The position numbers were made by a program, and so were the translations under genes. Source: Candidatus Saccharimonadota bacterium (GTDB lineage: Bacteria; Patescibacteriota; Saccharimonadia; Saccharimonadales; SLHW01). Taken from it: a stretch of DNA of 64,000 nucleotides. The stretch spans positions 3,966 through 67,965 of the forward strand of contig JAGXIU010000003.1 in the NCBI GenBank assembly GCA_024635455.1. The letters run 5' to 3'. The notes beneath the pieces were generated by a model. That model was not told the DNA's origin. It did not search any database and worked only from the letters and a program-made list of their open reading frames with translations. Position 1 is the first letter of the stretch, and every line of letters begins with the position of its first letter. Positions 12,224 to 47,350 of the stretch are shown piece after piece.

Positions 12224-12877
12224 ATGCTTGACTTTATTAATATATTGTGCTTAAATATATATATGTCAATAAAAAACAAAAACACACCACATTCAAATAA
12301 CGAAGAAAATATTAACACCACAAAAAGGGTTATCGCTGGAGCTGGAGCTGCTTTGGCGCTTTCTGCAGGGCTTGGAAGTGCTTCAGAGCTACCGCCTGAG
12401 CCAATTAACGCTAATAGCACAATGACCTTTGAAGAATCCGATGCTCCAGTTGAGCAAGATTTACCTGCGCCGAGTGCTATTACTAACCAGCCACAAGAAA
12501 AACTGAGCCTTTCGGAGCTTGATAAACCTGATGATAAAGAAGCACCAGAGCCACATGACGAGCCTAAGAAGGCGGACGCTACTGAAAAGGTCGATCCTGA
12601 AACCAAAACCGATACTCCTGACGGATTTGAGTCTGAACAAGTACATTCGCCTCCAGTTGAAAGCAGTCAAGATAGCTCAGACCAAGCAGAACTACCACCA
12701 GTAAAAGGTGGCCCCGAAGACGTAATTATCCCTCCAAAGGGTGGCCCTCGAGACTTAGTAGGTACTCCATATGAAGTAGAACAGAACGACGCAATACCGC
12801 GTAAGGGTGGCCCCGAAGATTTGGTAGGCACTCCCTATGAGCTCGACGCAGAGCAAGAAAATCCACCTACCAGTTAA
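12224..12877 (+). CDS. Hypothetical secreted acidic repeat protein
   Basis: Signal/TM-like AGAGAALALSAGLG. Three KGGP(E/R)D...VGTPYE(V/L) repeats at the C-terminus. Alternative start ATG 12263. Confidence 0.5.
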   Translation: MLDFINILCLNIYMSIKNKNTPHSNNEENINTTKRVIAGAGAALALSAGLGSASELPPEPINANSTMTFEESDAPVEQDLPAPSAITNQPQEKLSLSELDKPDDKEAPEPHDEPKKADATEKVDPETKTDTPDGFESEQVHSPPVESSQDSSDQAELPPVKGGPEDVIIPPKGGPRDLVGTPYEVEQNDAIPRKGGPEDLVGTPYELDAEQENPPTS

Positions 12878-12966
12878 GAATGGTCCGAAAGGTGTGCAGC
12901 AGTAGTTAGGTAGGTTAGACAAGAATAACCCACTGCTAAATACTAAAAAATATTTATTTTGAGTTT

Positions 12967-12990
12967 TCGCCTCACAGGCGACCTCTTTTT
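12967..12990 (+). terminator. Rho-independent terminator candidate
   Basis: Stem TCGCCT/AGGCGA with a 3-nt loop, followed by CCTCTTTTT. Lies about 90 nt after the stop at 12877. Confidence 0.4.
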
Positions 12991-13200
12991 GTCTGCAGTA
13001 ACAAAAAGTGACAAAAAATACCACAGGCGACAGAAATTTCGTGGCGTATTTGTTGATGCAAAACAGGCTTGCTGCGGAACTTGACGATAAATTGCCGCTG
13101 GCAACTTAGACATTTCGAACAGTTGCAATTAGATTCTTACGATAATTTTCAAACAAACAAATCACATTATCCGCACACTCGTAAAATTAATAAGTTAGAA

Positions 13201-13443
13201 ATGGCCATACTTAGGCTAAGGTCCAACTTGGCTCAAGCGGAAGGGCGTCCTGCAGATTCTAACGAATATATGCGTATGGTTAATAATCTTGACCCCGAGC
13301 ATAGTCATGACAAAAAGTCACTAGACATGGACAATTTAGTAGAGCAAACTATTAAATTTGTTGCAGGATTTTTATTACCGGGAATAATTATCTACGCTTA
13401 CGTGCTATATTTTTTGGAAATTATAAATGCACCAATCTCTTGA
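13201..13443 (+). CDS. Hypothetical small tail-anchored membrane protein
   Basis: ATG 13201 (MAILRLRSNL...). C-terminal TM helix FVAGFLLPGIIIYAYVLYFL. No homology recognised. Confidence 0.3.
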   Translation: MAILRLRSNLAQAEGRPADSNEYMRMVNNLDPEHSHDKKSLDMDNLVEQTIKFVAGFLLPGIIIYAYVLYFLEIINAPIS

Positions 13444-13516
13444 TCAGCTAAAACGCTGATTGCTCGCATTGGTTTCCCTGAGCCTGGCGAGCAACAAAAC
13501 ATGTATAATCAAACAT

Positions 13517-13798
13517 ATGTATTCTTTGATTGTTACGTTGTTGGCGGTGGTGATACTTATCTATATGTTCGAAGTGTTGCGAAGGAAGTCATCGCCCCGA
13601 GTAAAGCGGACCGGTTTATTAGCTTGGCTAGCGATAGGGGTGATAGTGGCTGGCTACGGCTTCTACATGGCATGGTTGCGAAGCGAGCCAGCTGGTATTG
13701 GTTTTGTCATATTATTTGCAATGACCTTGTTATTTTGGGTACTGCCAACAGGGCTTTTGCTCTGGCTAGATATCCGACCAGATACACCAGAGAAATAA
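13517..13798 (+). CDS. Hypothetical small polytopic membrane protein
   Basis: ATG 13517 (MYSLIVTLLAVVILIYMF...), three hydrophobic helices. The longer TTG-13460 ORF would read through a conserved non-coding motif. Confidence 0.45.
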   Translation: MYSLIVTLLAVVILIYMFEVLRRKSSPRVKRTGLLAWLAIGVIVAGYGFYMAWLRSEPAGIGFVILFAMTLLFWVLPTGLLLWLDIRPDTPEK

Positions 13799-13806
13799 GT
13801 CAAAGG

Positions 13807-14403
13807 TTATTCAATGTCGTCAAAGAGCCCTGCGAGTTCTTCGCCGTATTGAGCTTCAAGCGAGGAAATATTGATTGCTCGTTCGGCGAGTGCATTTGGG
13901 TTGAGCGCTTGTTCTGCTAGCATTTCGCCATAGCCGACTCCTGCACGCATGGCCATTGGGTCGTAGTTATCACCGGGGTGAGCGAACACTGCATAATTTG
14001 CACAAGACGCCATAGCGTCATCATGGCCTAATACATCTGCGCCAAGTCGGATAGCGGCAGCGGCCATAGTCTCTTCGTTATCACGACGATAGTCGTTCAG
14101 TGCGTAGAAATGATCTCGAAAGGCATCGTCATCCATAACCACATCTGACTTAATAGCAACGAAAGCAAGGCCGAGACACGCTCCGCGTTTGAAAGAACGT
14201 TCTTCTGCTGGCGATTTCATGCGTAGCGCCATCCGGTGAAAGTGTGATGGAACCATAACGCTACCAGCACGCAATACTTTACGACCAATATTTATTATAA
14301 ATGATTTATCACTGTATATAAGCAGCGATTCCGCTTCTTTGACATGCCATGCTTCTAGTCGAGCTTCGCGTGGTTCAGGGAATGGGTTAAGTGGTTCTGC
14401 CAT
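13807..14403 (-). CDS. Hypothetical protein (198 aa, soluble)
   Basis: Long ORF with normal codon usage. No motif recognised. Confidence 0.5.
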   Translation of the reverse strand: MAEPLNPFPEPREARLEAWHVKEAESLLIYSDKSFIINIGRKVLRAGSVMVPSHFHRMALRMKSPAEERSFKRGACLGLAFVAIKSDVVMDDDAFRDHFYALNDYRRDNEETMAAAAIRLGADVLGHDDAMASCANYAVFAHPGDNYDPMAMRAGVGYGEMLAEQALNPNALAERAINISSLEAQYGEELAGLFDDIE

Positions 14404-14496
14404 AACGATATTTCCTTATAAACCACTATACCAGAATACTTATGTAATATCATATGATTGACAAACTGCAAGGCATCGGTACATAGTAGAGGTATT

Positions 14497-15075
14497 ATGA
14501 TAGAAAAGTGTACACACCTGCCATGCGGGTTTGAAAACCGGCTTGAATACTGCGAGCTGGAGGCGCGAGACGAGCAGAACGCAGAGATAGTCGCTGCATT
14601 GCTTGATGATCTCCTATTTGAAAGCGACGATGTAAGTAGTAGTCAGTATAAGCACGAAAACACCAGCAAGAGCGGCTTATCTGAGCGATCATTCAGCTTC
14701 ATGTCGGCAGACGGCGGCAGGCTGCAAGAGCTAGACGTAACACTCCGCCATGAGCGGAAGTATGCAGTCCAATTAGATTGCTATAAAGTTGAAGTTGCTC
14801 GTCGTCAATCAAATATAGCTAGCATGGGAAGCAATTGGCAAAAAAATCAATATGTTATTGAAATATACCCGAAGGGTAGGGTCCACGGAACAATAGATCG
14901 TATCAACCCATTCGTTACGCGTAGCGGAGAAATTGAAGAAGGTAGCGGCATAGACATTATGCGTGGATACGACTATGTACAATTATTCGAAGAGCTGGCT
15001 AACGTGTGCGAGCTACATGAAATCGAACAAGTTGATAACCACAATAGTCTCCGTGCGGGAGTAGAGCTCGAGTAG
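14497..15075 (+). CDS. Hypothetical protein (192 aa, acidic)
   Basis: ATG 14497 preceded by an AGAGG Shine-Dalgarno sequence. The TTG at 14458 is less likely. No motif recognised. Confidence 0.5.
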   Translation: MIEKCTHLPCGFENRLEYCELEARDEQNAEIVAALLDDLLFESDDVSSSQYKHENTSKSGLSERSFSFMSADGGRLQELDVTLRHERKYAVQLDCYKVEVARRQSNIASMGSNWQKNQYVIEIYPKGRVHGTIDRINPFVTRSGEIEEGSGIDIMRGYDYVQLFEELANVCELHEIEQVDNHNSLRAGVELE

Positions 15076-15355
15076 AGTTTTCTTGCAAAACGCACTCAGC
15101 TAAGACATAATGACATGCAACGACCACGTATCATGCGCGGCCTACTTACAGCAAATATCAACAGTAATACATAACAAACATCACCAAAATATACCGATCG
15201 TGATGTAAAGAAAGGTACATATTAAGTCCGCCATTATAATTCAAGATAAGGGTATCGAGCATTGCGATGCAGGGCAGGCTAGTCAGTCGTTTGCCGAACA
15301 ATGGTATGGCTGGGTCGGTCAAAGCATCACCGAACAATCGCATGCTGATGTAGCA

Positions 15356-15832
15356 GTGCCACACATGCCAAATCCATGCATTCCCAAATATGATGCTTGG
15401 AAGCAAAGCTTAGAAGAACTTGATGTTGATGACGAGACGGTCCTTATAGGACATGGACTTGGCGCGAGCTTCCTTACGCGCTGGTTATCAGAAAGGGGGC
15501 GGCGTGACGTCACACCAGAACAACTTGTACTTGTCGGTCCGTGGCATCGACATCGACAGCGACAGGTTGGTGCGGAATTTTTACATTATGATATTGATAG
15601 GAATCTGGCAAAACGGGTTGGACGAATCAGCCTTCTAACTTCAGTGGACAGCAGCGTCAACCTACTTATTAGCGCAAATCATCTTTATAAAAAGCTCGGT
15701 ACAGATATTGACCACTATTCTTTTGACGGGTTCGGAAATTTTATTGTTGGCAATAGTATGAGCGCTGAGCCATTTCCTGAATTACTTCAGATTGTTAATG
15801 CTCAGGATAACGTCAATAACCAAGACTTTTAA
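15356..15832 (+). CDS. YdeN/COG3545-like alpha/beta serine-hydrolase homolog, catalytic residues degenerate, N-terminus possibly decayed
   Basis: MPNPxxPxxxxW and LIGHGLGASFL (usual GHSLG, so Ser is replaced by Gly). GFGNF sits where the catalytic GH is expected. Family-like sequence continues upstream to the stop at 15206 without an ATG/GTG/TTG. Confidence 0.4.
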   Translation: MPHMPNPCIPKYDAWKQSLEELDVDDETVLIGHGLGASFLTRWLSERGRRDVTPEQLVLVGPWHRHRQRQVGAEFLHYDIDRNLAKRVGRISLLTSVDSSVNLLISANHLYKKLGTDIDHYSFDGFGNFIVGNSMSAEPFPELLQIVNAQDNVNNQDF

Positions 15833-16659
15833 AAAAGTCTGAGCGAGCGAATGATACCCAGTGCTTGTTTATATGCGTTCGTAGACTGAAATACCTGTGG
15901 TGACATCGAGTGCATTTCTAAGTCATCTTCTAGTGCAGGTGAGCTGTAGCCGCCAGCGATTATGTATGTATCTGGAGCCTGACCAAAATCTGGACCTAGT
16001 GTATCACCTACGCTGAGTGAGAAGTTACCAGCAATGAACAAGAAGGATATGTGATCTGATCGATCAAGTCCAAAGAATGAGACATTTGTATCCTCGCGCT
16101 GCCCAAGTGCTGGATCGGTGTAGGTTAGTGACTCTGAGGCGAGTGATGCCACTCCTCGTCCAATATAATTACTATCCGATTCCCGTGCTCCTTGGCGAAG
16201 ATAGAGCCGAAAGACACCATCATCGATAACTGTATTGTTTGCAGTGGTAAAACCAAAAGCAGGTGATTCTATAGTGACGTCGTCTTCACCTTCAGTTAAC
16301 GTCCAGTTTGTTGGATAGGTCACTTCCATACGTGGGCTAGAAGTTTTAGCTTGCTCGGTGCTTGTTACGGCCGGTATGTCATCTTCGCTAGCTCCGGGCT
16401 CTGCTTGGTTGCTTGCAGCGGGGGTTGGCGCAACTTGCTCGGTTGCTTGGTCAGTCGTATCAGTATCATTTGTATCAGTAAGTAGTTGCCAAGCAAAAAA
16501 GCCGCCAAATACAATAAGAATGATCACAACAGCAATAATAATCGGTCGTTTCCAGGAACGCTTCGGCATAGAGCTTACCCAGTCATCAGTATCTGGCTCG
16601 CCGGGCAGATCAAGTGGTTCGTTAAAGAACTCTTCATCTGATTGTTTATTGTCTTCCAT
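15829..16659 (-). CDS. Hypothetical membrane-anchored extracytoplasmic protein
   Basis: Acidic N-terminus, one TM helix (IIIAVVIILIVFGGFFAWQLL), Thr/Asp-rich linker, about 170-aa domain. Confidence 0.55.
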   Translation of the reverse strand: MEDNKQSDEEFFNEPLDLPGEPDTDDWVSSMPKRSWKRPIIIAVVIILIVFGGFFAWQLLTDTNDTDTTDQATEQVAPTPAASNQAEPGASEDDIPAVTSTEQAKTSSPRMEVTYPTNWTLTEGEDDVTIESPAFGFTTANNTVIDDGVFRLYLRQGARESDSNYIGRGVASLASESLTYTDPALGQREDTNVSFFGLDRSDHISFLFIAGNFSLSVGDTLGPDFGQAPDTYIIAGGYSSPALEDDLEMHSMSPQVFQSTNAYKQALGIIRSLRLF

Positions 16660-16696
16660 CGAGTCTCCCTCGTTTATGCTTACATAATACCATCTT

Positions 16697-17338
16697 GTGT
16701 ATTATAGGGGTATGAGTAGAGAAGATAGACAACAACAAATTCAAACTGGTATACATCATTTGTCCTCACATGACCCTCGCCTAGCGAACGCCATAGAAGA
16801 AACAGGTGTTATATTCAGCGTTGAACCACATGATCGATACTATGAAGCGCTTGTGCGTGCAATCATATCGCAGCAGCTTAGTGTAGCGGCTGCCAATACT
16901 ATTGAGATGAGGCTACGACAGTTGTTTGTAGGCGATACGTTTACAGCACAAGAATTACTTAAGCTATCAGACGAGGAACTAAAGAGTGTTGGGATTTCCC
17001 GTAATAAGGTGACCTACTTAAAGGATCTAGCAAGTCATATAGATAGCGGTGAAATAATGGTACATGATTTCTCGACCGCTTCAGACGAAGCAGTGGTCGC
17101 TTCTTTAACGGCAGTGAAGGGGATAGGGGTATGGACTGCCCAGATGTTCCTAATATTTTGCTTGGGTAGGCTCAACGTATTGCCTTCGGCTGACTTAGGA
17201 ATACAGGTTGGCATACAGCAGACATACGAATTAAACGAGAGACCAACACCTAAGCAAGTTGAAGAGCTAGCGAATAACAACACGTGGTACCCTTACGCAA
17301 GTATTGCTAGCTGGTATCTGTGGAAGAATAAGGAGTAA
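16697..17338 (+). CDS. HhH-GPD DNA glycosylase (AlkA / 3-methyladenine DNA glycosylase II-like)
   Basis: Helix-hairpin-helix VKGIGVWTAQMFLIF, then LPSADLGIQ containing the catalytic Asp. Start is GTG 16697 or ATG 16712. Confidence 0.8.
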   Translation: MYYRGMSREDRQQQIQTGIHHLSSHDPRLANAIEETGVIFSVEPHDRYYEALVRAIISQQLSVAAANTIEMRLRQLFVGDTFTAQELLKLSDEELKSVGISRNKVTYLKDLASHIDSGEIMVHDFSTASDEAVVASLTAVKGIGVWTAQMFLIFCLGRLNVLPSADLGIQVGIQQTYELNERPTPKQVEELANNNTWYPYASIASWYLWKNKE

Positions 17339-17375
17339 AATTATAATATTATTATAATTGTGTTATAATAAAATC

Positions 17376-17570
17376 ATGAAATCACAATCTACACAAAAGG
17401 TAATTCAGATAGGTTCAAGTATTGGTGTCACTATACCAATACGCGAGGCTCGTTATCATGGTATCAAGACAGGGCAGAAAGTGCGAATGAGTGTAGAGAG
17501 CCATAACGATGGTGAGACTATTATACGTATATTTAAACCATCTTGGTGGCGCCGCCTCTTCTCGCGTTAA
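17376..17570 (+). CDS. AbrB/MazE/SpoVT-family small DNA-binding protein (orphan antitoxin-like)
   Basis: Swapped-hairpin motif KVIQIGSSIGVTIPIREARYHGIKTGQKV. No adjacent toxin ORF. Confidence 0.6.
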   Translation: MKSQSTQKVIQIGSSIGVTIPIREARYHGIKTGQKVRMSVESHNDGETIIRIFKPSWWRRLFSR

Positions 17571-17631
17571 TGTGCACCGGTTATCAAAAAATAATCTGCT
17601 AAACTTAGTCACATAAGTTTAAAGGAGGCAT

Positions 17632-18405
17632 GTGGTGTTCCAAAAAAAGAAAATTCAGAAACTTATTCGCTTCAATATGGTTATGTCAGCTATCCATGCG
17701 TCTCAAGGATTATTAGTTTTATTCATTAGTAGTAGCTTTAGTCTACCGATAACTTCAAGCTATCTAGCCTTTAACGAAACAACCGAATCGCTCGAGCAAG
17801 CTTCAAAGGTGTTGTTTGATCTGCCTCTCGCTCCACTGGTGGCACTATTCTTCTTCATCTCTGCTGGTTTTCATTTATTTATAGCCACGGCTGGTAAGAA
17901 GCAATATTCTCGTGACCTGAAACAAGGCATCAATCGATTCCGTTGGTATGAATACGCCATCTCTGCTTCTATTATGATGGTTGCTATCGCTATGTTAGCT
18001 GGTGTTTATGAGCTGTCACTTCTTATTGCAGTATTCGGCTTTACTGCGATTATGAACCTACTGGGCCTCGTAATGGAAGTACACAATCAGACAACGAAGC
18101 AAACCAATTGGTTGAGCTATGTAGTAGGTTGTGTTTCTGGCATCGTGCCGTGGATTATTGTGGCGATATATTTCTGGGGTACTGCGAGTGAGAGCGGAGC
18201 GAGCGCTATCCCTACATTTGTGTATTGGATATATGTATCGATATTCTTGTTCTTTAATGCCTTTGCGCTAAATATGGTGCTCCAATACAAGAAAATCGGT
18301 AAATGGAAGGACTATCTGTATGGAGAAAAATCCTACATTGTACTTAGCCTTGTGGCAAAATCGTTACTAGCTTGGCAAGTATTCGGTGGTACGCTGCAGC
18401 CTTAA
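17632..18405 (+). CDS. Heliorhodopsin (7-TM retinal protein)
   Basis: End-to-end by-eye match to heliorhodopsin 48C12: FRWYEYAISASIMM, GIVPWI, FLFFNAFAL, GEKSYIVLSLVAKSLLAWQVFGGTLQP (Schiff-base Lys in LVAKS). AAAGGAGG Shine-Dalgarno sequence upstream. Confidence 0.85.
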   Translation: MVFQKKKIQKLIRFNMVMSAIHASQGLLVLFISSSFSLPITSSYLAFNETTESLEQASKVLFDLPLAPLVALFFFISAGFHLFIATAGKKQYSRDLKQGINRFRWYEYAISASIMMVAIAMLAGVYELSLLIAVFGFTAIMNLLGLVMEVHNQTTKQTNWLSYVVGCVSGIVPWIIVAIYFWGTASESGASAIPTFVYWIYVSIFLFFNAFALNMVLQYKKIGKWKDYLYGEKSYIVLSLVAKSLLAWQVFGGTLQP

Positions 18406-18450
18406 TCGGGACACGTTATAATGATGAACAGAAAAAACAAGGAGGGAACT

Positions 18451-19272
18451 ATGGAAACAGTAGAGTATAGAAATGGCGATATCGTGCCAGCGATTGGCTT
18501 TGGTACGTCTCACGCTGGTGATGAAGATGATGTGGTGCGTGTTGTGACAGATGCACTGCAATCAGGTTACCGACTTATAGATAGTGCAAAAATGTATGGC
18601 AACGAAGCTGAAGTCGGTAAGGCAGTACGTGAATCTGATATACCTCGCGAGGATATTTTTGTGACGACTAAACTCCGCAAGGAAGATCTTGGTTATGAGT
18701 CGGCATTTACTGCGTACGAATCATCTATAAAAGAGCTCGGACTTGATTATGCTGATCTGTATCTAATACATTGGCCAACCAATGATAGCAGTCGAAACGA
18801 CAGCTGGCGGGCAATCGTCGAGATGCAGGCAGATGGTCGCATACCACATATCGGTGTATCAAACTTTACAGTTGATCATCTGGAGGAGCTCAAGACAGTC
18901 TCTGACGTTGTACCTGAAGTAAACCAGATTGAACTACATCCGTATATCTGGGAAGAGCAGCGCGCGATAGTTGAATATTGCCAGAAAAACGGCATTATCG
19001 TGCAAGCATACAGCCCGCTACTTCGTGGCGGTGCACTGGACGACCAAACGGTCGGTAGCATTGCAGGGTTGCATCACAAAACTCCAGCTCAAGTACTATT
19101 GCGTTGGGTGGTTCAGCACGGAGCAGTGCCATTGCCAAAAACAACAAAGCCGGAGCGAATGAAGCAGAACATTGACATATATGACTTTGAACTTACTGAG
19201 GAACATATGGCCTCACTCGACGGCTTGACCAATGGTCAACGCTTTGCAGCAGATCCGCACAACATTGCCTAA
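18451..19272 (+). CDS. Aldo/keto reductase (DkgA / 2,5-diketo-D-gluconate reductase-like)
   Basis: ATG 18451 after AAGGAGGG. IGFGT, GYRLIDSAKMYGNE, FVTTKL, LDYADLYLIHWP and IGVSNF are AKR signature blocks. Confidence 0.9.
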   Translation: METVEYRNGDIVPAIGFGTSHAGDEDDVVRVVTDALQSGYRLIDSAKMYGNEAEVGKAVRESDIPREDIFVTTKLRKEDLGYESAFTAYESSIKELGLDYADLYLIHWPTNDSSRNDSWRAIVEMQADGRIPHIGVSNFTVDHLEELKTVSDVVPEVNQIELHPYIWEEQRAIVEYCQKNGIIVQAYSPLLRGGALDDQTVGSIAGLHHKTPAQVLLRWVVQHGAVPLPKTTKPERMKQNIDIYDFELTEEHMASLDGLTNGQRFAADPHNIA

Positions 19273-19276
19273 GTAT

Positions 19277-20164
19277 CTATTCTCCTGGGTGGTATTCTTT
19301 GATATATCCAACGAGTAAACTAAGCGCACCGACTGCTTGTTCAGTTTGAGGTTTAGTACGCTCTGCTTCATGGAGGAAGTCGGTTTTTTCTGCTGGGGTT
19401 GCGTGGAGCAGGGTGTTGCCAATATGAGCTATGAGTTCGTTTCTTCTTGGTGAGTCTGGATATTCCATTAGTAATTCGAGGTCGGTACGTCGCTGCTGGA
19501 CCAGCTGACCCTCTGGCTTTGTATCGCCGGCCATAATCTGCGCCCGCAAGAGGAGGTCCTCGCGCCAGATATCTATGGTGGACTGCAGTCTTTCTGCGAT
19601 ATCGGGGTCATCTTGATGCATGTGTAAAATATGGTTCTTTACTTCTGTACTACGATGGTCGAAACTGTTGACGCTGTTGTCTCTAGCCACATCTTCAGGT
19701 ATAGAGAAAAATATTTCATCAAGTAAGTCACGAGTTTCATGTTCATCAAAGTCTAGGTATTTTATAAAATCACTCGGCAAACCAGATTTATGGAGAATCT
19801 TAGAAGTAATTTCTTGCTTACCTTTTCTGCGGGCTGCTTCATAGGCTTCTGAACCGATAACGTTATTACAAAGACCTCCTTCCGTATTTGCAGAGTATAG
19901 CTCTGTATAACGTTCCTCCATGAGTTCATGGGTGAGGGGATCCGTATATTCATCAAGTGGTCTTGTCTCTGGTATAGCAATTCGTTGGCCTGTATTATTT
20001 TTGGCCTCAGGTGCACGGCGGTTCACGTTCTCTTCTACGAGGCTATCTAGCTGCGGCGGTCGTGATCCATCTGTCATCTCAACCAATTCACCAGAGATTA
20101 CTTTCGGCGCTTTGGGTTCTGTAAGATCAATTAGCGTACCGCGGGGAAAAAATTCTGAACTCAT
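19277..20164 (-). CDS. Hypothetical protein (295 aa, acidic, soluble)
   Basis: Long ORF. No motif recognised. Confidence 0.5.
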   Translation of the reverse strand: MSSEFFPRGTLIDLTEPKAPKVISGELVEMTDGSRPPQLDSLVEENVNRRAPEAKNNTGQRIAIPETRPLDEYTDPLTHELMEERYTELYSANTEGGLCNNVIGSEAYEAARRKGKQEITSKILHKSGLPSDFIKYLDFDEHETRDLLDEIFFSIPEDVARDNSVNSFDHRSTEVKNHILHMHQDDPDIAERLQSTIDIWREDLLLRAQIMAGDTKPEGQLVQQRRTDLELLMEYPDSPRRNELIAHIGNTLLHATPAEKTDFLHEAERTKPQTEQAVGALSLLVGYIKEYHPGE

Positions 20165-23456: not shown

Positions 23457-23723
23457 ATGAATAACAAGCCCGAAAAAAACAATCAAGATATTCCAACTAA
23501 AAAACCAGTCCTCGACTCTAGTGAAGAAATTTCTCTAGACACAGAAGCCGGCACCATTAATCCTGAAGGCGCACCAAATGCCGAATTATTTAAAACGGAA
23601 GATGGACAGGTTAACCCGCAGCACGACGAATCAATTGACGGATATGAAGGTACCAACTACGGCATTCAGAATCCCGAACAAACTGAAGTATCTGACGTGC
23701 TAAAGGAGGAGAGACATGTCTGA
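23457..23723 (+). CDS. Hypothetical small acidic protein
   Basis: 88-aa ORF overlapping the next gene by 8 nt. No motif recognised. Confidence 0.4.
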   Translation: MNNKPEKNNQDIPTKKPVLDSSEEISLDTEAGTINPEGAPNAELFKTEDGQVNPQHDESIDGYEGTNYGIQNPEQTEVSDVLKEERHV

Positions 23724-24060
23724 ATTAAAACGAAACGTACCAGAAAAACGACCTAAACATAGCCTTTCTACGAAAATTGCCGCTGGGGCGCTTGTTCTTG
23801 GAGCAGGCTTGGGTGCGCATAATGTCTACACAGATATTCGTGAGCTGAGTGAAAACCCAATAGAATACGGTGATGAGGATAACAATACATACGTTGTAGA
23901 GCCGGGCGATACTCCTTGGACGATTGCTCGTAATTACTGGGGTGAGGAGAAAGATATCCGTCCGCTGGTCCATGGTATTACCGAGCAAATAGATATGCGT
24001 GGTAAGGATTTCTTGATGCCTGGTGATGTTATCGAGCTACCTCCTATAGACGCCGAATAG
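23716..24060 (+). CDS. Membrane-anchored LysM-domain protein
   Basis: TM helix IAAGALVLGAGLGA. LysM-like YVVEPGDTPWTIARNYWG...GDVIELP. Confidence 0.65.
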   Translation: MSELKRNVPEKRPKHSLSTKIAAGALVLGAGLGAHNVYTDIRELSENPIEYGDEDNNTYVVEPGDTPWTIARNYWGEEKDIRPLVHGITEQIDMRGKDFLMPGDVIELPPIDAE

Positions 24061-24320
24061 AAACGGCAATCGTTTTACGTTGGGCGCGTACACATAAGTT
24101 TAAGAGCTTATCGTATAAAAACACTTGATCACTCGACTGAGACGATGTTTATGGCCAGAATATCTGCTACGTAGTAAAACGCTGAATTAAGTACATGAAA
24201 ATTGTGCTTTCGGCTGTTTAATTAATGACGCTAACTCGTTATTGGTATTCGTTGTATTGCAATTATTGTTGTATTGTTGTATTGTAAGTACAATAAATAA
24301 TAAGAGGAAATGTAAATGCT

Positions 24321-25031
24321 ATGAGCAAACGTGCCAAAGCTGAATCAGATAAATCACTACATGAACAATCAGAGCCTAAAAAACCCAATCATCGACTTAG
24401 ACAGGCTGTAGCAGCCACCGCTTTGTTGGCGACCGCAGGAGGGGTATTTGGTAGTTTCAGAGTAGTAGATAACTTTTGGTTTAAACCAGATAGGGAGCGA
24501 AACGCGGAGGAGGCAACACTGTTCGAGGAGGTACGCAGTGGCGAGCGAGCAATTGAGGTCGAAGATGCATTAGTAGTGCTGCGTTCTGGAGTACAGTTGC
24601 GGGAGACACCACATATGGCATCAGCATCGTTTGGCAGAAATAATGAGGTGAGAGAGATTAGAGATGGAGAAAATATAGTCATTGACTATCCATTAGCTTA
24701 CACAGACGAAGTCAATCATACTTGGTACGGATTTAGCCTAGAAACTTCCATCGATGAAATCGTTGATAACGCAGACGAGCCAGCTGTCTCCGCTGACGCA
24801 ATTAGCGATAATACGCTATGGGTAAACGCTACAGCGCTAAATGGCCAACAAACAGCCGATGAATTACCGTATATAGAAATTCTTTTTCCTGGGGGTGGAG
24901 ATAACCCACTTGTAAATATAGACTCACGTGGGAACATTACAAACGGAGAAGATACAGAGACACCAATAGCAGTAGCAAGAGAAATAGACGATGATGTTGC
25001 GGAGTTTTTCATTCGTTCATACAGACGTTAA
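24321..25031 (+). CDS. Hypothetical membrane-anchored protein
   Basis: AAGAGGAAA Shine-Dalgarno sequence, TM helix AVAATALLATAGGVFG, acidic ectodomain. Confidence 0.5.
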   Translation: MSKRAKAESDKSLHEQSEPKKPNHRLRQAVAATALLATAGGVFGSFRVVDNFWFKPDRERNAEEATLFEEVRSGERAIEVEDALVVLRSGVQLRETPHMASASFGRNNEVREIRDGENIVIDYPLAYTDEVNHTWYGFSLETSIDEIVDNADEPAVSADAISDNTLWVNATALNGQQTADELPYIEILFPGGGDNPLVNIDSRGNITNGEDTETPIAVAREIDDDVAEFFIRSYRR

Positions 25032-25262: not shown

Positions 25263-25622
25263 ATGGCCACACTAGACTACTTCGAACGCAAGCTTGACAG
25301 CAAGCGACGGTTAACCATACCAGTCGAGCTTCGAGACGAACTTGCATCAGGGGTAGTAATCACTCGTGGGTTCCAGAAATACCTTCATCTTTACCCGAAG
25401 TCGGTATGGGATGAGCAGGTAGAAGCTAAGTTGAATGGAGATATTCTCGATGAGAGAATAGCTGACCTCAACGTTCAGTTTCGTACCGGCAAATCCGAAG
25501 GAGCTTTAGACGGGAAGCAGGGTCGCATCAGTATAGATCAACATTTGTTGGACTACGCTGGTATCGATCATTCATTAGTGGCAATCCGAGTTGGTCGCTA
25601 TTGGCGACTTGTCGCAGCATAG
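25263..25622 (+). CDS. mraZ: Transcriptional regulator MraZ (short form)
   Basis: Two SpoVT/AbrB-like halves with the motifs DSKRRLTIP and DGKQGRISI. First gene of the dcw cluster. Confidence 0.85.
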   Translation: MATLDYFERKLDSKRRLTIPVELRDELASGVVITRGFQKYLHLYPKSVWDEQVEAKLNGDILDERIADLNVQFRTGKSEGALDGKQGRISIDQHLLDYAGIDHSLVAIRVGRYWRLVAA

Positions 25623-25989
25623 CTTGAGTCCACGGATATTCTGAGTTTGGTAGTAGTTCGTTAAAAATTAAATATTAAACAGGTAGATAACAAAAGCAAC
25701 AAACGGCTCGAAGTTAGCTATCTGGCAGTCAACATGTGGCCGAAGGTAACCACACAAAAAACCTTTGTTCCTTACACTAAAACACCTCCCAAAACTCCAC
25801 CTCACACATAAGTCTCTCAAAACTTGATTGCAGAAGTAGAGGAAGTAGGGCATTCGAGGATTTTTAAAATCCTACAAGTAACTGTCCGCACATACGGCCT
25901 CACGGAAGCACTCACATAAAAACAAAAACGTATAAAAAACAAAAAGTTGACTGCTGGATAGGTGACTTTGTAACAAAAACAAAAACAAT

Positions 25990-26934
25990 ATGCACCAAAA
26001 CCAAAACAAAAACACAAACAATCATATACCGGTATTGCTCGAAGAAGTACTGACATATCTAGACCCAAAGCAGGGCGAGGCATACCTCGATCTGACGGCT
26101 GGATACGGCGGACACGCCGAAGAGGTACTACGGCGAACTCAGGCTACTAACACAGCAGTGCTAGTAGACAGAGACGAGCAAGCGGTTGCACACTTGAAAA
26201 AGAAGTTTGCAAAAACTCCGCCAGAGATTCGTCATATGGATTTCTATGGAGCTAGTAAGCAGCTCAGTCAAGAGGAGAGAACATTTGATTGTATTTTGGC
26301 AGATTTGGGCCTATCGTCACCGCACCTTGACAAGGCGAGTCGTGGTTTTAGCATCCGCACCGATGCACCGCTCGATATGCGTATGGATCAACGCCAGACG
26401 CTGAGTGCAGAACTAGTTCTTAATACGTACGGCGAAGAAGAATTAGCTGACATACTGCACCAGTACGGCGAAGAGCCAAAAGCTCGAGCTATCGCACGGC
26501 GGATAGTCGCAAAACGACCACTCCATACTACGAAAGAATTGGCGGACCTAGCTTCGTCAGTTTGGCCGGGTAGAAGCAAACAGCATCCAGCCATTCGCAC
26601 CTTTCAGGCTATTCGTATAGCCGTGAACGATGAGATTGAGCAACTTAAAGCAGCAATGCCAGAGTGGATATCTATGCTTAAGCCAGGCGGTAGAATTGTG
26701 GTCATCAGTTTCCATAGCTTAGAAGATCGGGTTGTGAAGCAAACATTTGCCGAACACTCTAAACACCCATATGAGGCGGATCTTCAGCTTTTGACCAAAC
26801 GACCAGTAACCGCTCGTCACCATGAAATAGTTTTTAATCCGCGAGCACGTAGCGCAAAGCTACGAGCCGCAGCGAAAATAAAAATAAACAAAAATAGGAA
26901 GCATAAAAAGCTTCCAAATACGGAAAGGGGATAG
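25990..26934 (+). CDS. rsmH: 16S rRNA (cytosine1402-N4)-methyltransferase
   Basis: HIPVLLEEVL, YLDLTAGYGGH, ILADLGLSSPHLD, SFHSLEDRVVK. Confidence 0.95.
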   Translation: MHQNQNKNTNNHIPVLLEEVLTYLDPKQGEAYLDLTAGYGGHAEEVLRRTQATNTAVLVDRDEQAVAHLKKKFAKTPPEIRHMDFYGASKQLSQEERTFDCILADLGLSSPHLDKASRGFSIRTDAPLDMRMDQRQTLSAELVLNTYGEEELADILHQYGEEPKARAIARRIVAKRPLHTTKELADLASSVWPGRSKQHPAIRTFQAIRIAVNDEIEQLKAAMPEWISMLKPGGRIVVISFHSLEDRVVKQTFAEHSKHPYEADLQLLTKRPVTARHHEIVFNPRARSAKLRAAAKIKINKNRKHKKLPNTERG

Positions 26935-27094
26935 AGGATTATGCCAATTCAGGTAAAAAACCTCTCCCGAGCTTACAAAGTACGCGTCCGCGTAATGTAG
27001 TAAGCGCATAGTGGTTAGCCTGGCGCTATGGTTTGGTTTCCATAATACAGCGCCAGGCTGCAACGCTCTGCAAAAACAAACACAGGTTAAACGT

Positions 27095-27439
27095 ATGACA
27101 TATTCAAGTTCATTAGCAGTAGGACGGCAACGTGCAATGGGGCGTAACAAAAACGTTACATCCTATAGAGCGCAAGCACGTACGATAGGTCCGGTTAGTA
27201 ATACCGTAATTATTGTTGTGCTCGTTTGCTTATTAGGGCTGTTGTATTTGTCTCAGGTGACCAAGACCAATGCCTACGGCTTTGAGATAGATAATCTAGA
27301 GACGCAACAATCACAGCTTATTAGTGAGTATCAAGAGCTAGAGCTGAACGCTGCTCGACTACAATCGGTAGATAGAGTCCAAAACAGTGGGGTAGCCCAA
27401 GGACTGGTTCCAGCTCAACCAAAATCTATCGTACAATAG
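27095..27439 (+). CDS. ftsL: FtsL-like cell-division protein
   Basis: ATG 27095. One TM helix (VIIVVLVCLLGLLYL) followed by a coiled coil. Lies between rsmH and ftsI. Confidence 0.55.
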   Translation: MTYSSSLAVGRQRAMGRNKNVTSYRAQARTIGPVSNTVIIVVLVCLLGLLYLSQVTKTNAYGFEIDNLETQQSQLISEYQELELNAARLQSVDRVQNSGVAQGLVPAQPKSIVQ

Positions 27440-27489
27440 TAACAGCTGCTTGCTGTATCATTTGAATGCGCACAGTAAAATAAATATAT

Positions 27490-29274
27490 ATGTACGAAGA
27501 TAATACAAATCAGACGAATCCTATAGCACGTACCCGACTTTGGTATGTGTTTTTGTTATTGTTGTCATGTCTGGTATTAGTGCGTGTGTTTTATCTGCAA
27601 GTCATTCAGCACGATTACTATACAAGTGCGGCCCGTAGTGGTCAGTTCAAGGAATACGAAATTCCAGCTTCACGCGGCATCATAGAAGCGCACGACGGTG
27701 GTCGGGTCGTCCCAATTGTATTAAATGAACCAAAGTATACCTTATTTTTTGATCCACTTCATATAGAAGACTATCAAACAACTGCAGACACAATTCTAGC
27801 TGCAGTGCCGAGCATAGCTATCGATAGAGCTGATCTTTTAAGTATGATGCAACAAGATAGTCGTTACGTTATCGTCGCTAAGAAATTATCAGAAGAAAAA
27901 GCTGAGGAGCTTACAGCACTAGAGCTTCGGGGTGTAGGTTTACGTGAGGAGTCACAAAGAGCCTACCCACAGGGCGATTTAGCTGCTCAGGTGCTTGGAT
28001 TTGTGAATGACGAGGACCAAGGTGTCTACGGAGTGGAACAAGCTCTCAACGACGCATTGCGTGGTGTACCCGGCGAACTGCGGGCTGTGACAGACGCTCG
28101 CGGAGTTCCTCTGGCGGCCAATCCAGAGAACATTAGCGTTGAACCAAAGCAGGGAAGTCGAGTGCTGCTCACACTAGATGTCGGCTTACAAAAGCAACTT
28201 GAGGATATTTTAGAAAGTGGGCTCGAACATGCTGGCTCAGACACTGGCGGAGCGCTTATAATCGATGCCAATACAGGTGCAATAAAGGCTATGGCTAATT
28301 TACCGAGCTATAATCCAGCCCGCTTTACAGAAGTATCACAAGAAGAAAGTCACGTATTTACAAACGATCTGATTGCGTCCCCGCTAGAAATAGGGTCTAT
28401 CATGAAACCGTTTACGATGGCGGCAGCGTTGGACAGCGGAGTCGTGGATAAAAACACGACTTACTATGACCCGAATCAATTCACTATCGATGGGGCAACG
28501 ATTACAAACGTTGCAGAATCTAGCGGCGTTGGTATAAGGAGCATGGAAGATATTCTGCAGCTATCACTTAACACTGGTGCCACGTGGCTTCTGAAACAAA
28601 TGGGTGGCGGCGAGATTAATGAGCAAGCTCGTACGACATGGCATTCGTACATGACTGAGAAGTACTTTTTTGGAAGTAAGACAGGCATAGAGCAAGGTTA
28701 TGAAGCTACTGGCTCAGTACCATCGCCCGTGGACGGATTCGGGCTAAATATTCAATATGCCAACACTGCATTTGGGCAGGGTATGACTGCAACACCACTG
28801 CAGGCTGCCGCAGCGTTTGCAGCGATTGTGAATGGAGGCACATATTATCAGCCGAGGCTTGTCGATGCAGTATCTGATAATAGCGGTGGAAATACCCAGC
28901 TAATTGAGCCAGTTGTGAAGAAAGCCAACATTATTTCTCCAACTGCAAGTCGGGATACTCGAGATCTTCTCCTCAATGCATTCTCAATAAATTATCGAAC
29001 CTACGGTCTGGATGGATTACGAGAAGGGTACGATATTGGTGGAAAAACAGGAACTGCACAGGTGCCAAATCCTGAAGGAGGCTACTATGATTATCGATTC
29101 AACGGTACGTTTATTGGATTTGTCGAGGGACTCGACAAGACGTATGTCATAATAGCTCGAGTAGATGACCCCAGTATTGGTGGCTATGCAGGGTCGACAG
29201 CTGCCGGACCAATTTTTACACAGTTAGCCGAGGTCATGATTGACTCTTATGGCTTACAGCCCAAAGCCCAATAA
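27490..29274 (+). CDS. ftsI: Class B penicillin-binding protein / peptidoglycan D,D-transpeptidase FtsI
   Basis: N-terminal TM helix and dimerisation domain. SIMKPF (SxxK), SLN (SxN), KTGTA (KTG). Confidence 0.9.
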   Translation: MYEDNTNQTNPIARTRLWYVFLLLLSCLVLVRVFYLQVIQHDYYTSAARSGQFKEYEIPASRGIIEAHDGGRVVPIVLNEPKYTLFFDPLHIEDYQTTADTILAAVPSIAIDRADLLSMMQQDSRYVIVAKKLSEEKAEELTALELRGVGLREESQRAYPQGDLAAQVLGFVNDEDQGVYGVEQALNDALRGVPGELRAVTDARGVPLAANPENISVEPKQGSRVLLTLDVGLQKQLEDILESGLEHAGSDTGGALIIDANTGAIKAMANLPSYNPARFTEVSQEESHVFTNDLIASPLEIGSIMKPFTMAAALDSGVVDKNTTYYDPNQFTIDGATITNVAESSGVGIRSMEDILQLSLNTGATWLLKQMGGGEINEQARTTWHSYMTEKYFFGSKTGIEQGYEATGSVPSPVDGFGLNIQYANTAFGQGMTATPLQAAAAFAAIVNGGTYYQPRLVDAVSDNSGGNTQLIEPVVKKANIISPTASRDTRDLLLNAFSINYRTYGLDGLREGYDIGGKTGTAQVPNPEGGYYDYRFNGTFIGFVEGLDKTYVIIARVDDPSIGGYAGSTAAGPIFTQLAEVMIDSYGLQPKAQ

Positions 29275-29297
29275 TGTTATACTAGGAGAAGCAATTT

Positions 29298-30341: not shown

Positions 30342-30359
30342 CATAATCACTAAAATCTA

Positions 30360-32736: not shown

Positions 32737-32740
32737 GGTT

Positions 32741-34380: not shown

Positions 34381-34596
34381 ATTAATATTGCAGTTTTTGT
34401 TAGCACGTCTGAAAGAGCATACTCTCCTAACCTGCCAACAGGCACACAAGTCGGCTGTTGCTACTTATCAATCTTAGCTTTGGGTTTATTACGACTAGTT
34501 CTACCTTAAGTGTAGCCACTACTGATACTGCCCTTAAGTCTTGTAAGCAGATACTGCACAGCAGCAGATGTATTCTTATAGAAAATGGAAGCTTTT

Positions 34597-47345: not shown

Positions 47346-47350
47346 CGTCG

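What the first reader, a model, noticed from the sequence alone, without database searches (positions are those of the whole stretch)
17632..18405. Full-length heliorhodopsin in a probable CPR/Saccharibacteria genome
The 257-aa 7-TM ORF is colinear from end to end with heliorhodopsin 48C12, recalled from memory. Matching blocks are FRWYEYAISASIMM versus FRWVEYSLSSSVM (counter-ion Glu), GIVPWI, FLFFNAFAL, and GEKSYIVLSLVAKSLLAWQVFGGTLQP versus GERAYIVLSLVAKSALAWQIFSGTLIP. The last block includes the Schiff-base Lys (LVAKS). Both conserved His positions are present (AIHAS, GFHLF). Heliorhodopsin function is still unsettled. No carotenoid or retinal biosynthesis gene (crtEBIY, blh) is visible in this 64 kb. 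In a reduced episymbiont this raises two questions: where the chromophore comes from, and what light-dependent process is being controlled.
Basis: partly seen in the sequence, partly recalled or inferred. Interest (0 to 1): 0.7.

Follow-up and report, generated by a model that had tools for sequence, protein, structure and literature searches.

The report
Heliorhodopsin gene in a Saccharibacteria genome
The ORF is a genuine, complete heliorhodopsin (a light-sensing retinal membrane protein with inverted orientation) in a Saccharibacteria-type genome, but such genes are already known to be common in this group, so it is a correct but largely ordinary find.

Summary
Window 17632-18405 (+) encodes a 257-aa protein that matches the heliorhodopsin (HeR) models end to end: Pfam PF18761 at 325 bits, and the NCBIfam HeR equivalog at 329 bits against a cutoff of 100. 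It is 54% identical to the crystallised TaHeR and 45% identical to 48C12. The Schiff-base Lys (K243), counter-ion Glu (E107), both His (H22, H81), the SxxxK Ser (S239) and the six lateral-fenestration residues all align. An AlphaFold model superposes on TaHeR (TM 0.88). K+R counts (16 versus 1) predict a cytoplasmic N-terminus. No retinal or carotenoid gene and no type-1 rhodopsin is found in the 64 kb. The nearest relatives and the flanking synteny are Saccharibacteria. This is not new: 80 HeRs in Saccharimonadia were published in 2022, hundreds of Saccharibacteria MAGs carry one, and retinal scavenging has already been proposed. The most likely role is a slow light sensor that loads external retinal and modulates cytoplasmic partners. 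No neighbour is conserved across about 170 HeR loci. In the closest sub-clade an AbrB-type small protein always precedes HeR, and alkylpurine DNA glycosylases, a YvgN-like aldo-keto reductase and a PIF1 helicase recur nearby. That pattern gives a modest, testable damage-response hypothesis.

The parts
17632..18405 (+). Heliorhodopsin gene, 257 aa plus stop. Start is GTG at 17632 (or GTG at 17635). Key codons: H22 17695-97, H81 17872-74, E107 (counter-ion) 17950-52, S111 17962-64, Y163 18118-20, C167 18130-32, G170 18139-41, F208 18253-55, N209 18256-58, A212 18265-67 (fenestration residues), S239 18346-48, K243 (Schiff base) 18358-60.
17623..17628 (+). Shine-Dalgarno AGGAGG, 3-6 nt before the GTG start codons. 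It supports the long (257-aa) form over the 240-aa database gene call.
   Evidence: sequence. N-terminal residues 3-17 are conserved, with L11 and N15 at 90% or more.
17376..17570 (+). 64-aa AbrB/MazE (SpoVT-AbrB) family small DNA-binding protein with a basic aromatic C-terminal tail (SWWRRLFSR). It lies directly upstream of HeR on the same strand, 61 nt before the HeR start. TATAAT-like boxes lie at 17340-17370.
   Evidence: PF04014 matches 8 of 8 family members, best E=3.5e-7; the window copy scores E=0.004, below cutoff. The best PDB matches are AbrB-family regulators at marginal E=0.02. It sits upstream of HeR in 7 lineages.
18451..19272 (+). Aldo-keto reductase of the YvgN/DkgA type, 273 aa from the ATG at 18451 that follows AAGGAGGG; the longest ORF starts at 18421. 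It begins 15-45 nt after the HeR stop, and no terminator is predicted between them.
   Evidence: Pfam PF00248 E=1.5e-55. PDB YvgN E=7.5e-73. NCBIfam DkgA 237 bits, below the equivalog cutoff of 425. One search finds no terminator. It is adjacent to HeR in 4 lineages and within 1.4 kb in a fifth.
16697..17338 (+). 3-methyladenine DNA glycosylase of the HhH-GPD superfamily (AlkA/Mag type), upstream of the AbrB-HeR pair on the same strand.
   Evidence: Pfam PF00730 E=4.9e-17. PDB 2h56 'DNA-3-methyladenine glycosidase' E=7e-35, plus Mag1/Mag2/AlkA2. It is present at this position only in the window lineage and L083-85.
15829..16659 (-). 276-aa single-pass membrane protein of unknown function. It forms the conserved left boundary of the slot that holds the HeR cassette.
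   Evidence: No Pfam hit. Homologues lie at the same position in L002, L082, L083, L086 and L170.
19277..20164 (-). 295-aa protein of unknown function. It forms the conserved right boundary of the slot and is followed by NYN, GH1 and CofD genes.
   Evidence: No Pfam hit. Same position in L001, L002 and L083. NYN/GH1/CofD are shown.

Best explanation
The ORF encodes a functional TaHeR-like heliorhodopsin of a Saccharibacteria (CPR) bacterium.

Shown by computation:
- It has seven helices with a beta-hairpin in the first external loop.
- The N-terminus is predicted to be cytoplasmic.
- A retinal Schiff-base Lys (K243) sits in helix 7 within SLVAK, and a single Glu counter-ion (E107) sits in helix 3.
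- The two conserved His residues (H22, H81) are present.
- The lateral opening between helices 5 and 6 is intact: Y163, C167, G170, F208, N209, A212, identical to TaHeR.

Inferred from characterised relatives:
- The genome region, and Saccharibacteria generally, lack retinal synthesis. The apoprotein therefore probably loads all-trans-retinal made by other organisms (host or community) through that lateral opening.
- It probably absorbs green light (about 540-550 nm), has a slow photocycle and transports no ions.
- It probably signals by changing how its strongly basic cytoplasmic loops bind a soluble or membrane partner. Loop 1 is residues 85-103 and loop 3 is residues 218-235, with 5 K/R each. 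Such binding has been demonstrated for glutamine synthetase, photolyase and an ABC transporter in other bacteria.

Inferred from gene context in the closest sub-clade only: the gene forms a unit with an upstream AbrB-type DNA-binding protein. That unit sits among genes for alkylated-base DNA repair and reactive-aldehyde reduction. The most likely physiological output is therefore a light-cued response to photo-oxidative or electrophile damage.
For: Identity: HMM and PDB matches; all catalytic and fenestration residues conserved; these residues are invariant in 32 homologues; model pLDDT 84, TM 0.88 to 6IS6; K+R 16 versus 1; purifying selection.

Exogenous retinal: no blh/crt/polyprenyl or type-1 rhodopsin domain in any window ORF. 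No blh-like family recurs next to HeR in 79 genome loci. PMC9296517 reports no blh in rhodopsin-bearing Saccharibacteria and describes fast retinal uptake by TaHeR through a small opening. The fenestration residues are listed in bioRxiv 10.1101/2025.11.27.691015.

Partner regulation: PMC11109279 shows that positive residues in ICL1 and ICL3 mediate binding. GS, photolyase and ABC transporter cases appear.

Context: AbrB-HeR adjacency in 7 lineages; PF08713 (AlkD-like) directly downstream in 3 independent lineages; HhH-GPD 3mA glycosylase upstream in 2; AKR in 5; PIF1 in 4; DJ-1 in 1. This theme agrees with the oxidative-stress proposals of PMC8612252 and PMC9166423.
Against: - No spectroscopy, photocycle, transport or binding data exist for this protein or, as far as the searchable literature shows, for any CPR HeR.
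- No neighbour is conserved across about 170 Saccharibacteria-type HeR loci; the largest neighbour family occurs in 7 of 79. Context therefore cannot define a general partner.
- The sub-clade associations may only reflect inherited synteny in gene-dense genomes. The unrelated flanking genes are conserved in the same lineages, and several loci come from one metagenome (3300076002).
- Only 64 kb of the genome was available, so absence of blh genome-wide is inferred from the literature, not tested here.
- The two-component systems in the window lie 24-31 kb away, outside the 10-kb range used in published associations.
Confidence: 0.6

Rival explanations
1. The protein is a light-harvesting 'two-antenna' heliorhodopsin. 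The lateral fenestration is a carotenoid-binding site that recruits exogenous xanthophylls from the environment or host. This reading is compatible with a sensory role and not strictly exclusive of the best explanation.
For: The motif defined in the 2025 preprint is fully present: an aromatic pair at 48C12 positions 162/206, small residues at 166/210, Gly169 and Asn207. Here these are Y163, F208, C167, A212, G170 and N209. Saccharibacteria are monoderm and cannot make carotenoids.
Against: The proposal rests on structure comparison and docking in one preprint; no carotenoid binding to a HeR is demonstrated there. The same opening was earlier interpreted as the retinal entry port. No energy-conserving output (ion transport) is known for TaHeR-type HeRs.
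Confidence: 0.15
2. The protein is a light-activated ion (proton) transporter or channel, like the viral heliorhodopsin V2HeR3. In that case it contributes to membrane energetics in an organism with few ways to make a proton gradient.
For: A viral HeR transports protons (PMC9448325). CPR bacteria have ATP synthase but few proton pumps.
Against: The protein belongs to the TaHeR/48C12 branch (54% and 45% identity), not the viral subfamily. The 2025 preprint places the transporting viral subfamily among the HeRs that lack the fenestration motif; that motif is present here. Published descriptions of TaHeR and 48C12 report no ion transport (Pushkarev 2018 and Shihoya 2019, from my own knowledge).
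Confidence: 0.05
3. The gene is effectively chromophore-less in vivo: a relic, or a protein with a light-independent structural role, because the cell cannot make retinal.
For: No retinal pathway is found in the window or reported for the group.
Against: There is strong purifying selection, and the Schiff-base Lys, the counter-ion and the retinal-pocket residues are invariant across 32 homologues and thousands of relatives. The gene has a strong ribosome-binding site. TaHeR, also from an organism without retinal synthesis, binds added retinal quickly.
Confidence: 0.05
4. The contig is not from Saccharibacteria. In that case the HeR belongs to another monoderm lineage, or to a mis-assembled or mis-binned fragment.
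For: The organism is not given. A few related HeR contigs are labelled Burkholderiaceae, Thermoplasmatales, Dormiibacterota or Izimaplasma.
Against: More than 60 of the 80 best genome hits are labelled Saccharibacteria, Saccharimonadales or Saccharimonas. More than 10 flanking genes on both sides of HeR are syntenic with, and 55-89% identical to, a Saccharibacteria MAG. Composition is uniform across the window. The gene content is typical of the group: a reduced dcw cluster, sortases, DUF3048, and use of TGA as a stop codon.
Confidence: 0.03

Closest known systems
TaHeR, heliorhodopsin of Thermoplasmatales archaeon SG8-52-1 (PDB 6IS6, 7CLJ, 7U55)
   Same: 54% identity with one 6-residue indel. 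All pocket residues are the same (H23/H82/E108/S112/S234/K238 correspond to H22/H81/E107/S111/S239/K243). The fenestration residues are the same (Y164, C168, G171, F203, N204, A207). The fold matches at TM 0.88. Both come from organisms without retinal synthesis.
   Different: TaHeR comes from an archaeal MAG, this one from a CPR bacterium. The loop between helices 5 and 6 is 6 residues longer here. Nothing has been measured for the window protein.
Heliorhodopsin 48C12 (PDB 6SU3, 6UH3), the founding member
   Same: Colinear over 250 residues at 45% identity. E107, and K241 corresponding to K243. Same length.
   Different: More distant than TaHeR. F162 is Y163 here, N138 is T, and Q213 is M.
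Saccharimonadia/CPR heliorhodopsins surveyed by Chiriac et al. 2022 (PMC9166423) and Bulzu et al. 2021 (PMC8612252)
   Same: Same taxon, same family and the same SLVAK retinal motif. A role in oxidative-stress mitigation was proposed.
   Different: Those were surveys. The sub-clade cassette described here (AbrB-HeR with alkylpurine glycosylases and AKR) is not mentioned in the searchable literature.
Regulatory heliorhodopsins with demonstrated partners: AbHeR-glutamine synthetase (PMC9529153), TfHeR-photolyase (PMC9769723), OcHeR-OmrDE ABC transporter (PMC11109279)
   Same: Same family. The cytoplasmic loops 1 and 3 that mediate binding are basic here too. A DNA-repair neighbour parallels the photolyase case.
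   Different: None of the ten published neighbour classes lies next to this gene: GS, NAD synthetase, photolyase, MerR, TerC, ABC, SDR, alpha/beta hydrolase, DUF2177, DUF2238. The neighbours here are an AbrB-type protein, an AKR and a 3-methyladenine glycosylase.
Saccharibacteria type-1 rhodopsins (SacR; Jaffe et al. 2022, PMC9296517)
   Same: Same host phylum. They also have no blh, take up external retinal rapidly, and the host is hypothesised as the retinal source.
   Different: SacRs are DTS-motif outward proton pumps with normal topology. The window protein has SxxxK rather than DxxxK, is inverted, and matches no bac_rhodopsin model.

Membership tests
Heliorhodopsin (PF18761 / NCBIfam NF038020) | Full-length match to the family HMMs above the curated cutoffs | tested here: met
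   Pfam: 325.2 bits against 26.7, profile positions 1-242 of 242. NCBIfam equivalog: 329.4 bits against 100.
Heliorhodopsin (PF18761 / NCBIfam NF038020) | Seven transmembrane helices with the rhodopsin fold, plus a long beta-hairpin in the first extracellular loop | tested here: met
   The AlphaFold2 model (pLDDT 84, pTM 0.82) has helices at 2-32, 66-85, 102-122, 128-154, 160-188, 195-220 and 225-255, and strands at 37-48 and 53-65. Foldseek gives TM 0.88 to 6IS6, against 0.63 or less to type-1 rhodopsins.
Heliorhodopsin (PF18761 / NCBIfam NF038020) | Inverted topology (N-terminus cytoplasmic, C-terminus outside) | tested here: met
   Positive-inside rule: 16 K+R in the N-terminus and loops 2, 4 and 6, against 1 in the other loops. 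This is a prediction only, not an experimental topology.
Heliorhodopsin (PF18761 / NCBIfam NF038020) | Retinal Schiff-base Lys in helix 7 within SxxxK (not DxxxK) | tested here: met
   S239-L-V-A-K243 aligns with S234/K238 of TaHeR and S237/K241 of 48C12. It is invariant in 32 homologues.
Heliorhodopsin (PF18761 / NCBIfam NF038020) | Single Glu counter-ion in helix 3 (RWxEY) and the two conserved His residues | tested here: met
   R104-W105-Y-E107-Y108, H22 and H81 all align and are all invariant.
Heliorhodopsin (PF18761 / NCBIfam NF038020) | Lateral fenestration between helices 5 and 6 (aromatic pair, Cys, Gly, Asn, small residue) | tested here: met
   Y163, C167, G170, F208, N209 and A212 are identical to TaHeR Y164, C168, G171, F203, N204 and A207 (residues defined). 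The actual opening was not measured on the model.
Heliorhodopsin (PF18761 / NCBIfam NF038020) | Binds all-trans-retinal, absorbs near 550 nm, has a second-scale photocycle and no ion transport | not testable with these tools
   Requires expression, spectroscopy and electrophysiology.
Type-1 microbial rhodopsin (PF01036) | Match to the bac_rhodopsin model, DxxxK in helix 7, and carboxylate acceptor/donor motifs (DTD/DTE/DTS etc.) | tested here: not met
   No PF01036 hit at E of 0.01 or lower. Ser, not Asp, lies four residues before the Lys. Structural similarity is only at superfamily level, TM 0.5-0.63.
HeR-partner regulatory pairs (GS, photolyase, ABC transporter type) | A partner gene co-transcribed with HeR and conserved next to it | tested here: inconclusive
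   No partner is conserved over about 170 loci. Within the closest sub-clade, the AbrB-like gene is upstream in 7 lineages, AKR is present in 5, and alkylpurine glycosylases (two unrelated families) in 5. Flanking backbone genes are conserved in the same lineages, so inherited synteny is not excluded. No terminator is predicted within the cassette.
HeR-partner regulatory pairs (GS, photolyase, ABC transporter type) | Basic residues in intracellular loops 1 and 3 that bind the partner | tested here: met
   Loop 85-103 has K89, K90, R94, K97 and R102. Loop 218-235 has K220, K221, K224, K226 and K233. K221 and W225 are invariant, as in the OcHeR mutagenesis.
AbrB/MazE (SpoVT-AbrB, PF04014), for the upstream 64-aa protein | Match to the swapped-hairpin DNA-binding domain model | tested here: inconclusive
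   The window copy scores 17.4 bits, below the cutoff of 24.7. All 8 family members hit PF04014, best E=3.5e-7. The profile's best PDB hits are AbrB-family regulators at E=0.02. JGI names a homologue a PrlF-type antitoxin/regulator. No toxin gene is adjacent.

The most novel reading that the evidence does not exclude
In one Saccharibacteria lineage, heliorhodopsin and the AbrB-type protein encoded just upstream form a minimal light-to-transcription switch. In this model, illuminated HeR binds or releases the small DNA-binding protein at the membrane. The released protein then controls a variable 'light-damage islet' that carries alkylpurine DNA glycosylases (HhH-GPD or AlkD-like), a PIF1 helicase and reactive-aldehyde reductases (YvgN-like AKR, DJ-1). 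The AKR might also buffer free retinal or retinol scavenged from the host. This would be a new output class for heliorhodopsins and the first defined light response in a CPR bacterium.
Probability: 0.1. Interest if true: 0.6.

Novelty: new member of a known kind. Interest (0 to 1): 0.3.

Why it matters
No heliorhodopsin from a CPR bacterium has been characterised, as far as I could find. These organisms have tiny genomes, live on other cells and cannot make retinal. A conserved photoreceptor therefore implies both a metabolite dependency on neighbours and a behaviour tuned to light. However, the presence of HeR in Saccharibacteria, the missing retinal pathway and a link to oxidative stress are all already in the literature, so this locus does not open a new question. 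Its practical value is as a well-defined test case. It is a full-length HeR very close to the crystallised TaHeR. It sits in a compact cassette with candidate partners: an AbrB-type protein, an AKR and a 3-methyladenine glycosylase. These could be tested directly for light-dependent binding or regulation.

Tried and rejected
1. Exact look-up of the 257-aa protein found nothing. The databases hold a 240-aa call starting at M18. I judged that call truncated, not the ORF over-extended.
2. I looked for a conserved HeR neighbour across 79 species-level genome loci by ORF clustering. None was found; the largest family (cupin) occurs in 7 loci, followed by DUF308, ABC ATPase, sortase, CFA synthase, VKOR, TldD and HxlR. 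A general operon partner is therefore rejected.
3. jackhmmer searches with the window's AbrB-like, AKR and HhH-GPD proteins over those loci found only the nearest relatives.
It was used only as background, and there the sub-clade neighbours are absent.
5. A link to two-component systems was considered. The window's HK/RR pairs lie at 42-49 kb, 24-31 kb away, too far to argue linkage.
6. The promoter and terminator scan was uninformative. There were fewer promoter-like sites than in shuffles, and one terminator-like site inside the HeR ORF.
7. dN/dS could not be computed because synonymous sites are saturated; pN and pS are reported instead.
8. A whole-genome blh/crt scan was not possible, because only the 64-kb window and flanks of 10 kb or less of related loci were accessible.
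Full report
**Observation.** The window holds a 257-aa ORF at 17632-18405 on the + strand.
- It matches Pfam PF18761 (Heliorhodopsin) over the whole model, positions 1-242 of 242, at 325 bits and E=3e-97.
- It matches NCBI's 'heliorhodopsin HeR' equivalog NF038020 at 329 bits against a cutoff of 100.
- Against solved structures, the best matches are the Thermoplasmatales heliorhodopsin TaHeR (6IS6, E=1.7e-84) and 48C12 (6SU3/9LJJ, E about 1e-58). Both are colinear from about residue 6-9 to the last residue.

**Residue mapping**.
- H22, H81, R104, W105, E107, Y108, S111, S239 and K243 correspond to the conserved His pair, the counter-ion Glu, the SxxxK Ser and the Schiff-base Lys of both reference proteins.
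- Identity is 54% to TaHeR and 45% to 48C12.
- These positions are invariant in an alignment of 32 homologues.

**Start codon.** An AGGAGG at 17623-17628 precedes GTG codons at 17632 and 17635. Residues 3-17 (basic, then L11 and N15) are conserved among homologues. The identical protein in public databases (P0001, 240 aa, from M18) is therefore very probably a truncated gene call.

**Structure and topology.**
- An AlphaFold2 model built on that alignment has pLDDT 84 and pTM 0.82. It shows seven long helices and a two-stranded sheet (37-48, 53-65) in the first loop, which is the heliorhodopsin hallmark.
- The model superposes on TaHeR with TM 0.88 and on 48C12 with TM 0.83. Type-1 rhodopsins reach only 0.5-0.63.
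- The N-terminus and alternate loops hold 16 Lys+Arg, against 1 on the opposite face. This predicts the N-in, C-out orientation that defines the family.
- Non-synonymous divergence from relatives is 0.07-0.18 while synonymous sites are saturated at about 0.8. The gene is therefore under purifying selection.

**Organism.**
- A scan of one genome per species found more than 425 relatives. The best 80 (56-79% identity) are almost all Saccharibacteria, Saccharimonadales or Saccharimonas MAGs.
- At least ten genes flanking HeR in the window have syntenic homologues at 55-89% identity in a Candidatus Saccharibacteria MAG, L002.
- Window content fits the group. It includes a reduced dcw cluster (mraZ to ftsQ, 25263-33700), sortase, DUF3048 and PEGA proteins, a standard genetic code with TGA stops, and uniform composition of about 45% GC.

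**Chromophore supply.**
- Pfam scans of essentially every ORF in the 64 kb found no beta-carotene dioxygenase, no crt or polyprenyl synthase, and no type-1 rhodopsin.
- No blh-like family recurs beside HeR in 79 other genome loci.
- The six residues that form the lateral fenestration in HeR structures are all present and identical to TaHeR: Y163, C167, G170, F208, N209 and A212 (residues defined).
- Jaffe et al. 2022 found no blh in rhodopsin-bearing Saccharibacteria. They showed fast uptake of external retinal by the Saccharibacteria type-1 rhodopsins, noted the same behaviour for TaHeR via a small opening, and proposed actinobacterial hosts as the source.
Genome-wide absence of blh could not be tested here.

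**What is known.**
- Chiriac et al. 2022 screened 1326 CPR genomes and found 80 HeRs in Saccharimonadia with SLVAK-type motifs. They suggested a role in mitigating oxidative stress.
- Bulzu et al. 2021 listed Patescibacteria among HeR-bearing monoderm phyla and argued for a sensory role.
- Since 2022, HeRs from other bacteria have been shown to bind and regulate glutamine synthetase, photolyase and an ABC transporter through basic intracellular loops. A viral HeR conducts protons.
- A 2025 preprint proposes that the fenestration binds exogenous xanthophylls.
- The finding is thus a correct identification of a member of a known and already surveyed group.

**Gene context.**
- In the window the order is 3-methyladenine DNA glycosylase (HhH-GPD, 16697-17338; PDB 2H56 E=7e-35), then a 64-aa AbrB/MazE-type protein (17376-17570), then HeR, then a YvgN/DkgA-like aldo-keto reductase (18451-19272). 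All are on one strand with gaps of 15-61 nt downstream of the glycosylase, and no predicted terminator lies between them.
- Across 79 genome loci and 80 metagenome loci no neighbour is conserved. There is no general operon partner.
- Twelve independent lineages have HeRs 68-88% identical to this one. There the cassette sits in a slot between conserved flanking genes.
- In those lineages, the AbrB-like gene lies directly upstream of HeR in 7, and nothing is ever inserted between the two.
- The variable genes around them are: an AKR (5 lineages), PF08713 AlkD-like alkylpurine glycosylase immediately downstream (3 independent lineages, gaps of 10-13 nt or overlapping), HhH-GPD glycosylase (2), PIF1 helicase (4), CYTH (2), and DJ-1/PfpI plus a metallo-beta-lactamase-fold protein (1).
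- Two unrelated families of alkylated-base glycosylases at the same locus, together with aldehyde-detoxifying enzymes, suggest a damage-response theme. That theme agrees with the photolyase precedent and the oxidative-stress proposals.
- There are caveats. The backbone synteny is conserved in the same lineages, CPR genomes are gene-dense, and several loci come from one metagenome. Common descent could therefore explain much of the pattern.
- The searchable literature does not mention HeR together with AbrB. It mentions HeR with glycosylases only incidentally.

**Mechanism.**
- Most likely (about 0.6), the protein is a TaHeR-type photosensor. It loads scavenged all-trans-retinal through the lateral opening and undergoes a slow photocycle without ion transport. 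It signals through its basic cytoplasmic loops (85-103 and 218-235, five K/R each, with K221 and W225 invariant) to a cytoplasmic partner.
- In this lineage the best candidates are the AbrB-type protein, the AKR and the glycosylase.
- The fold, topology, residues and context are computed here. Retinal binding, the photocycle, lack of transport and partner binding are inferred from characterised relatives.
- Rivals are a carotenoid-antenna role (0.15, not exclusive), ion transport (0.05), a chromophore-less relic (0.05) and a non-Saccharibacteria origin (0.03).

**Verdict.** The protein is a new member of a known kind and of low-to-moderate interest (0.3). The residual novelty lies in the lineage-specific AbrB-HeR cassette and its DNA-repair and aldehyde-reductase neighbours. 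This is a testable but weakly supported hypothesis: probability about 0.1 for the strong form, interest 0.6 if true.

Noticed in passing
window 17632-17685; proteins P0001 and P0003: The public gene calls for this HeR and for its 88%-identical relative are 240 aa and start at Met18. A strong AGGAGG at 17623-17628 and conserved residues 3-17 indicate that the true start is the GTG at 17632 or 17635, so the database entries lack the basic cytoplasmic N-terminus.
   Followed up: yes
window 15829-20164, compared with L002, L082, L083, L086 and L170: HeR lies in a variable slot between conserved flanks: a ~276-aa membrane protein on the - strand, and a ~295-aa protein on the - strand followed by NYN, GH1 and CofD. 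AbrB-HeR stays constant, while HhH-GPD, CYTH, AKR, AlkD-like PF08713, PIF1 and HAD genes come and go.
   Followed up: partly
L023, L037, L065, L071, L076: Contigs binned as Burkholderiaceae (a diderm), Dormiibacterota, Parcubacteria, Izimaplasma and Thermoplasmatales carry HeRs 57-62% identical to this one. The archaeal TaHeR is closer to Saccharibacteria HeRs (54%) than bacterial 48C12 is (45%). This suggests either mis-binned Saccharibacteria contigs or lateral transfer, and it raises the question of where the TaHeR clade originated.
   Followed up: no
window 42321-43787 (-): A response-regulator receiver domain (residues 4-105) is followed by a tail of about 370 aa rich in Pro, Gln, Thr and Ala, with a duplicated 21-aa block (GDQSAQTQAPAADTATNQSPP). 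No output domain was detected. The tail explains the extreme AT skew (-0.37) at 42-44 kb. A PAS histidine kinase lies next to it at 43887-45656.
   Followed up: partly
window 46944-48895 (-) and 524-937 (+): A second PAS histidine kinase and receiver-only response regulator pair, plus a third stand-alone receiver protein. That is three receiver-only regulators in 64 kb of a reduced genome, and none has a DNA-binding output domain.
   Followed up: no
window 33800-34597: A stretch of about 800 bp has no ORF of 60 aa or more. It lies where the long + strand gene run (4.6-33.7 kb, ending with the dcw cluster) meets the - strand run (34.6-45.6 kb). Cumulative GC skew rises up to about 34 kb and then flattens. 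No Rfam family matches there.
   Followed up: no
window 12224-16659 and 23457-25031: Runs of ORFs without any Pfam match (217, 124, 112, 198, 205, 158 and 276 aa; then 88, 114 and 236 aa). Several are predicted membrane or secreted proteins and are conserved only in the closest Saccharibacteria relatives.
   Followed up: no
L087 3038-5513 and L136/L148: In other Saccharibacteria HeR loci, a PNPOx-like (pyridoxamine 5'-phosphate oxidase fold) gene abuts HeR in three loci. In L087 HeR is followed by DJ-1/PfpI and a metallo-beta-lactamase-fold gene. This is another small redox/aldehyde-detoxification association that was not analysed further.
   Followed up: no
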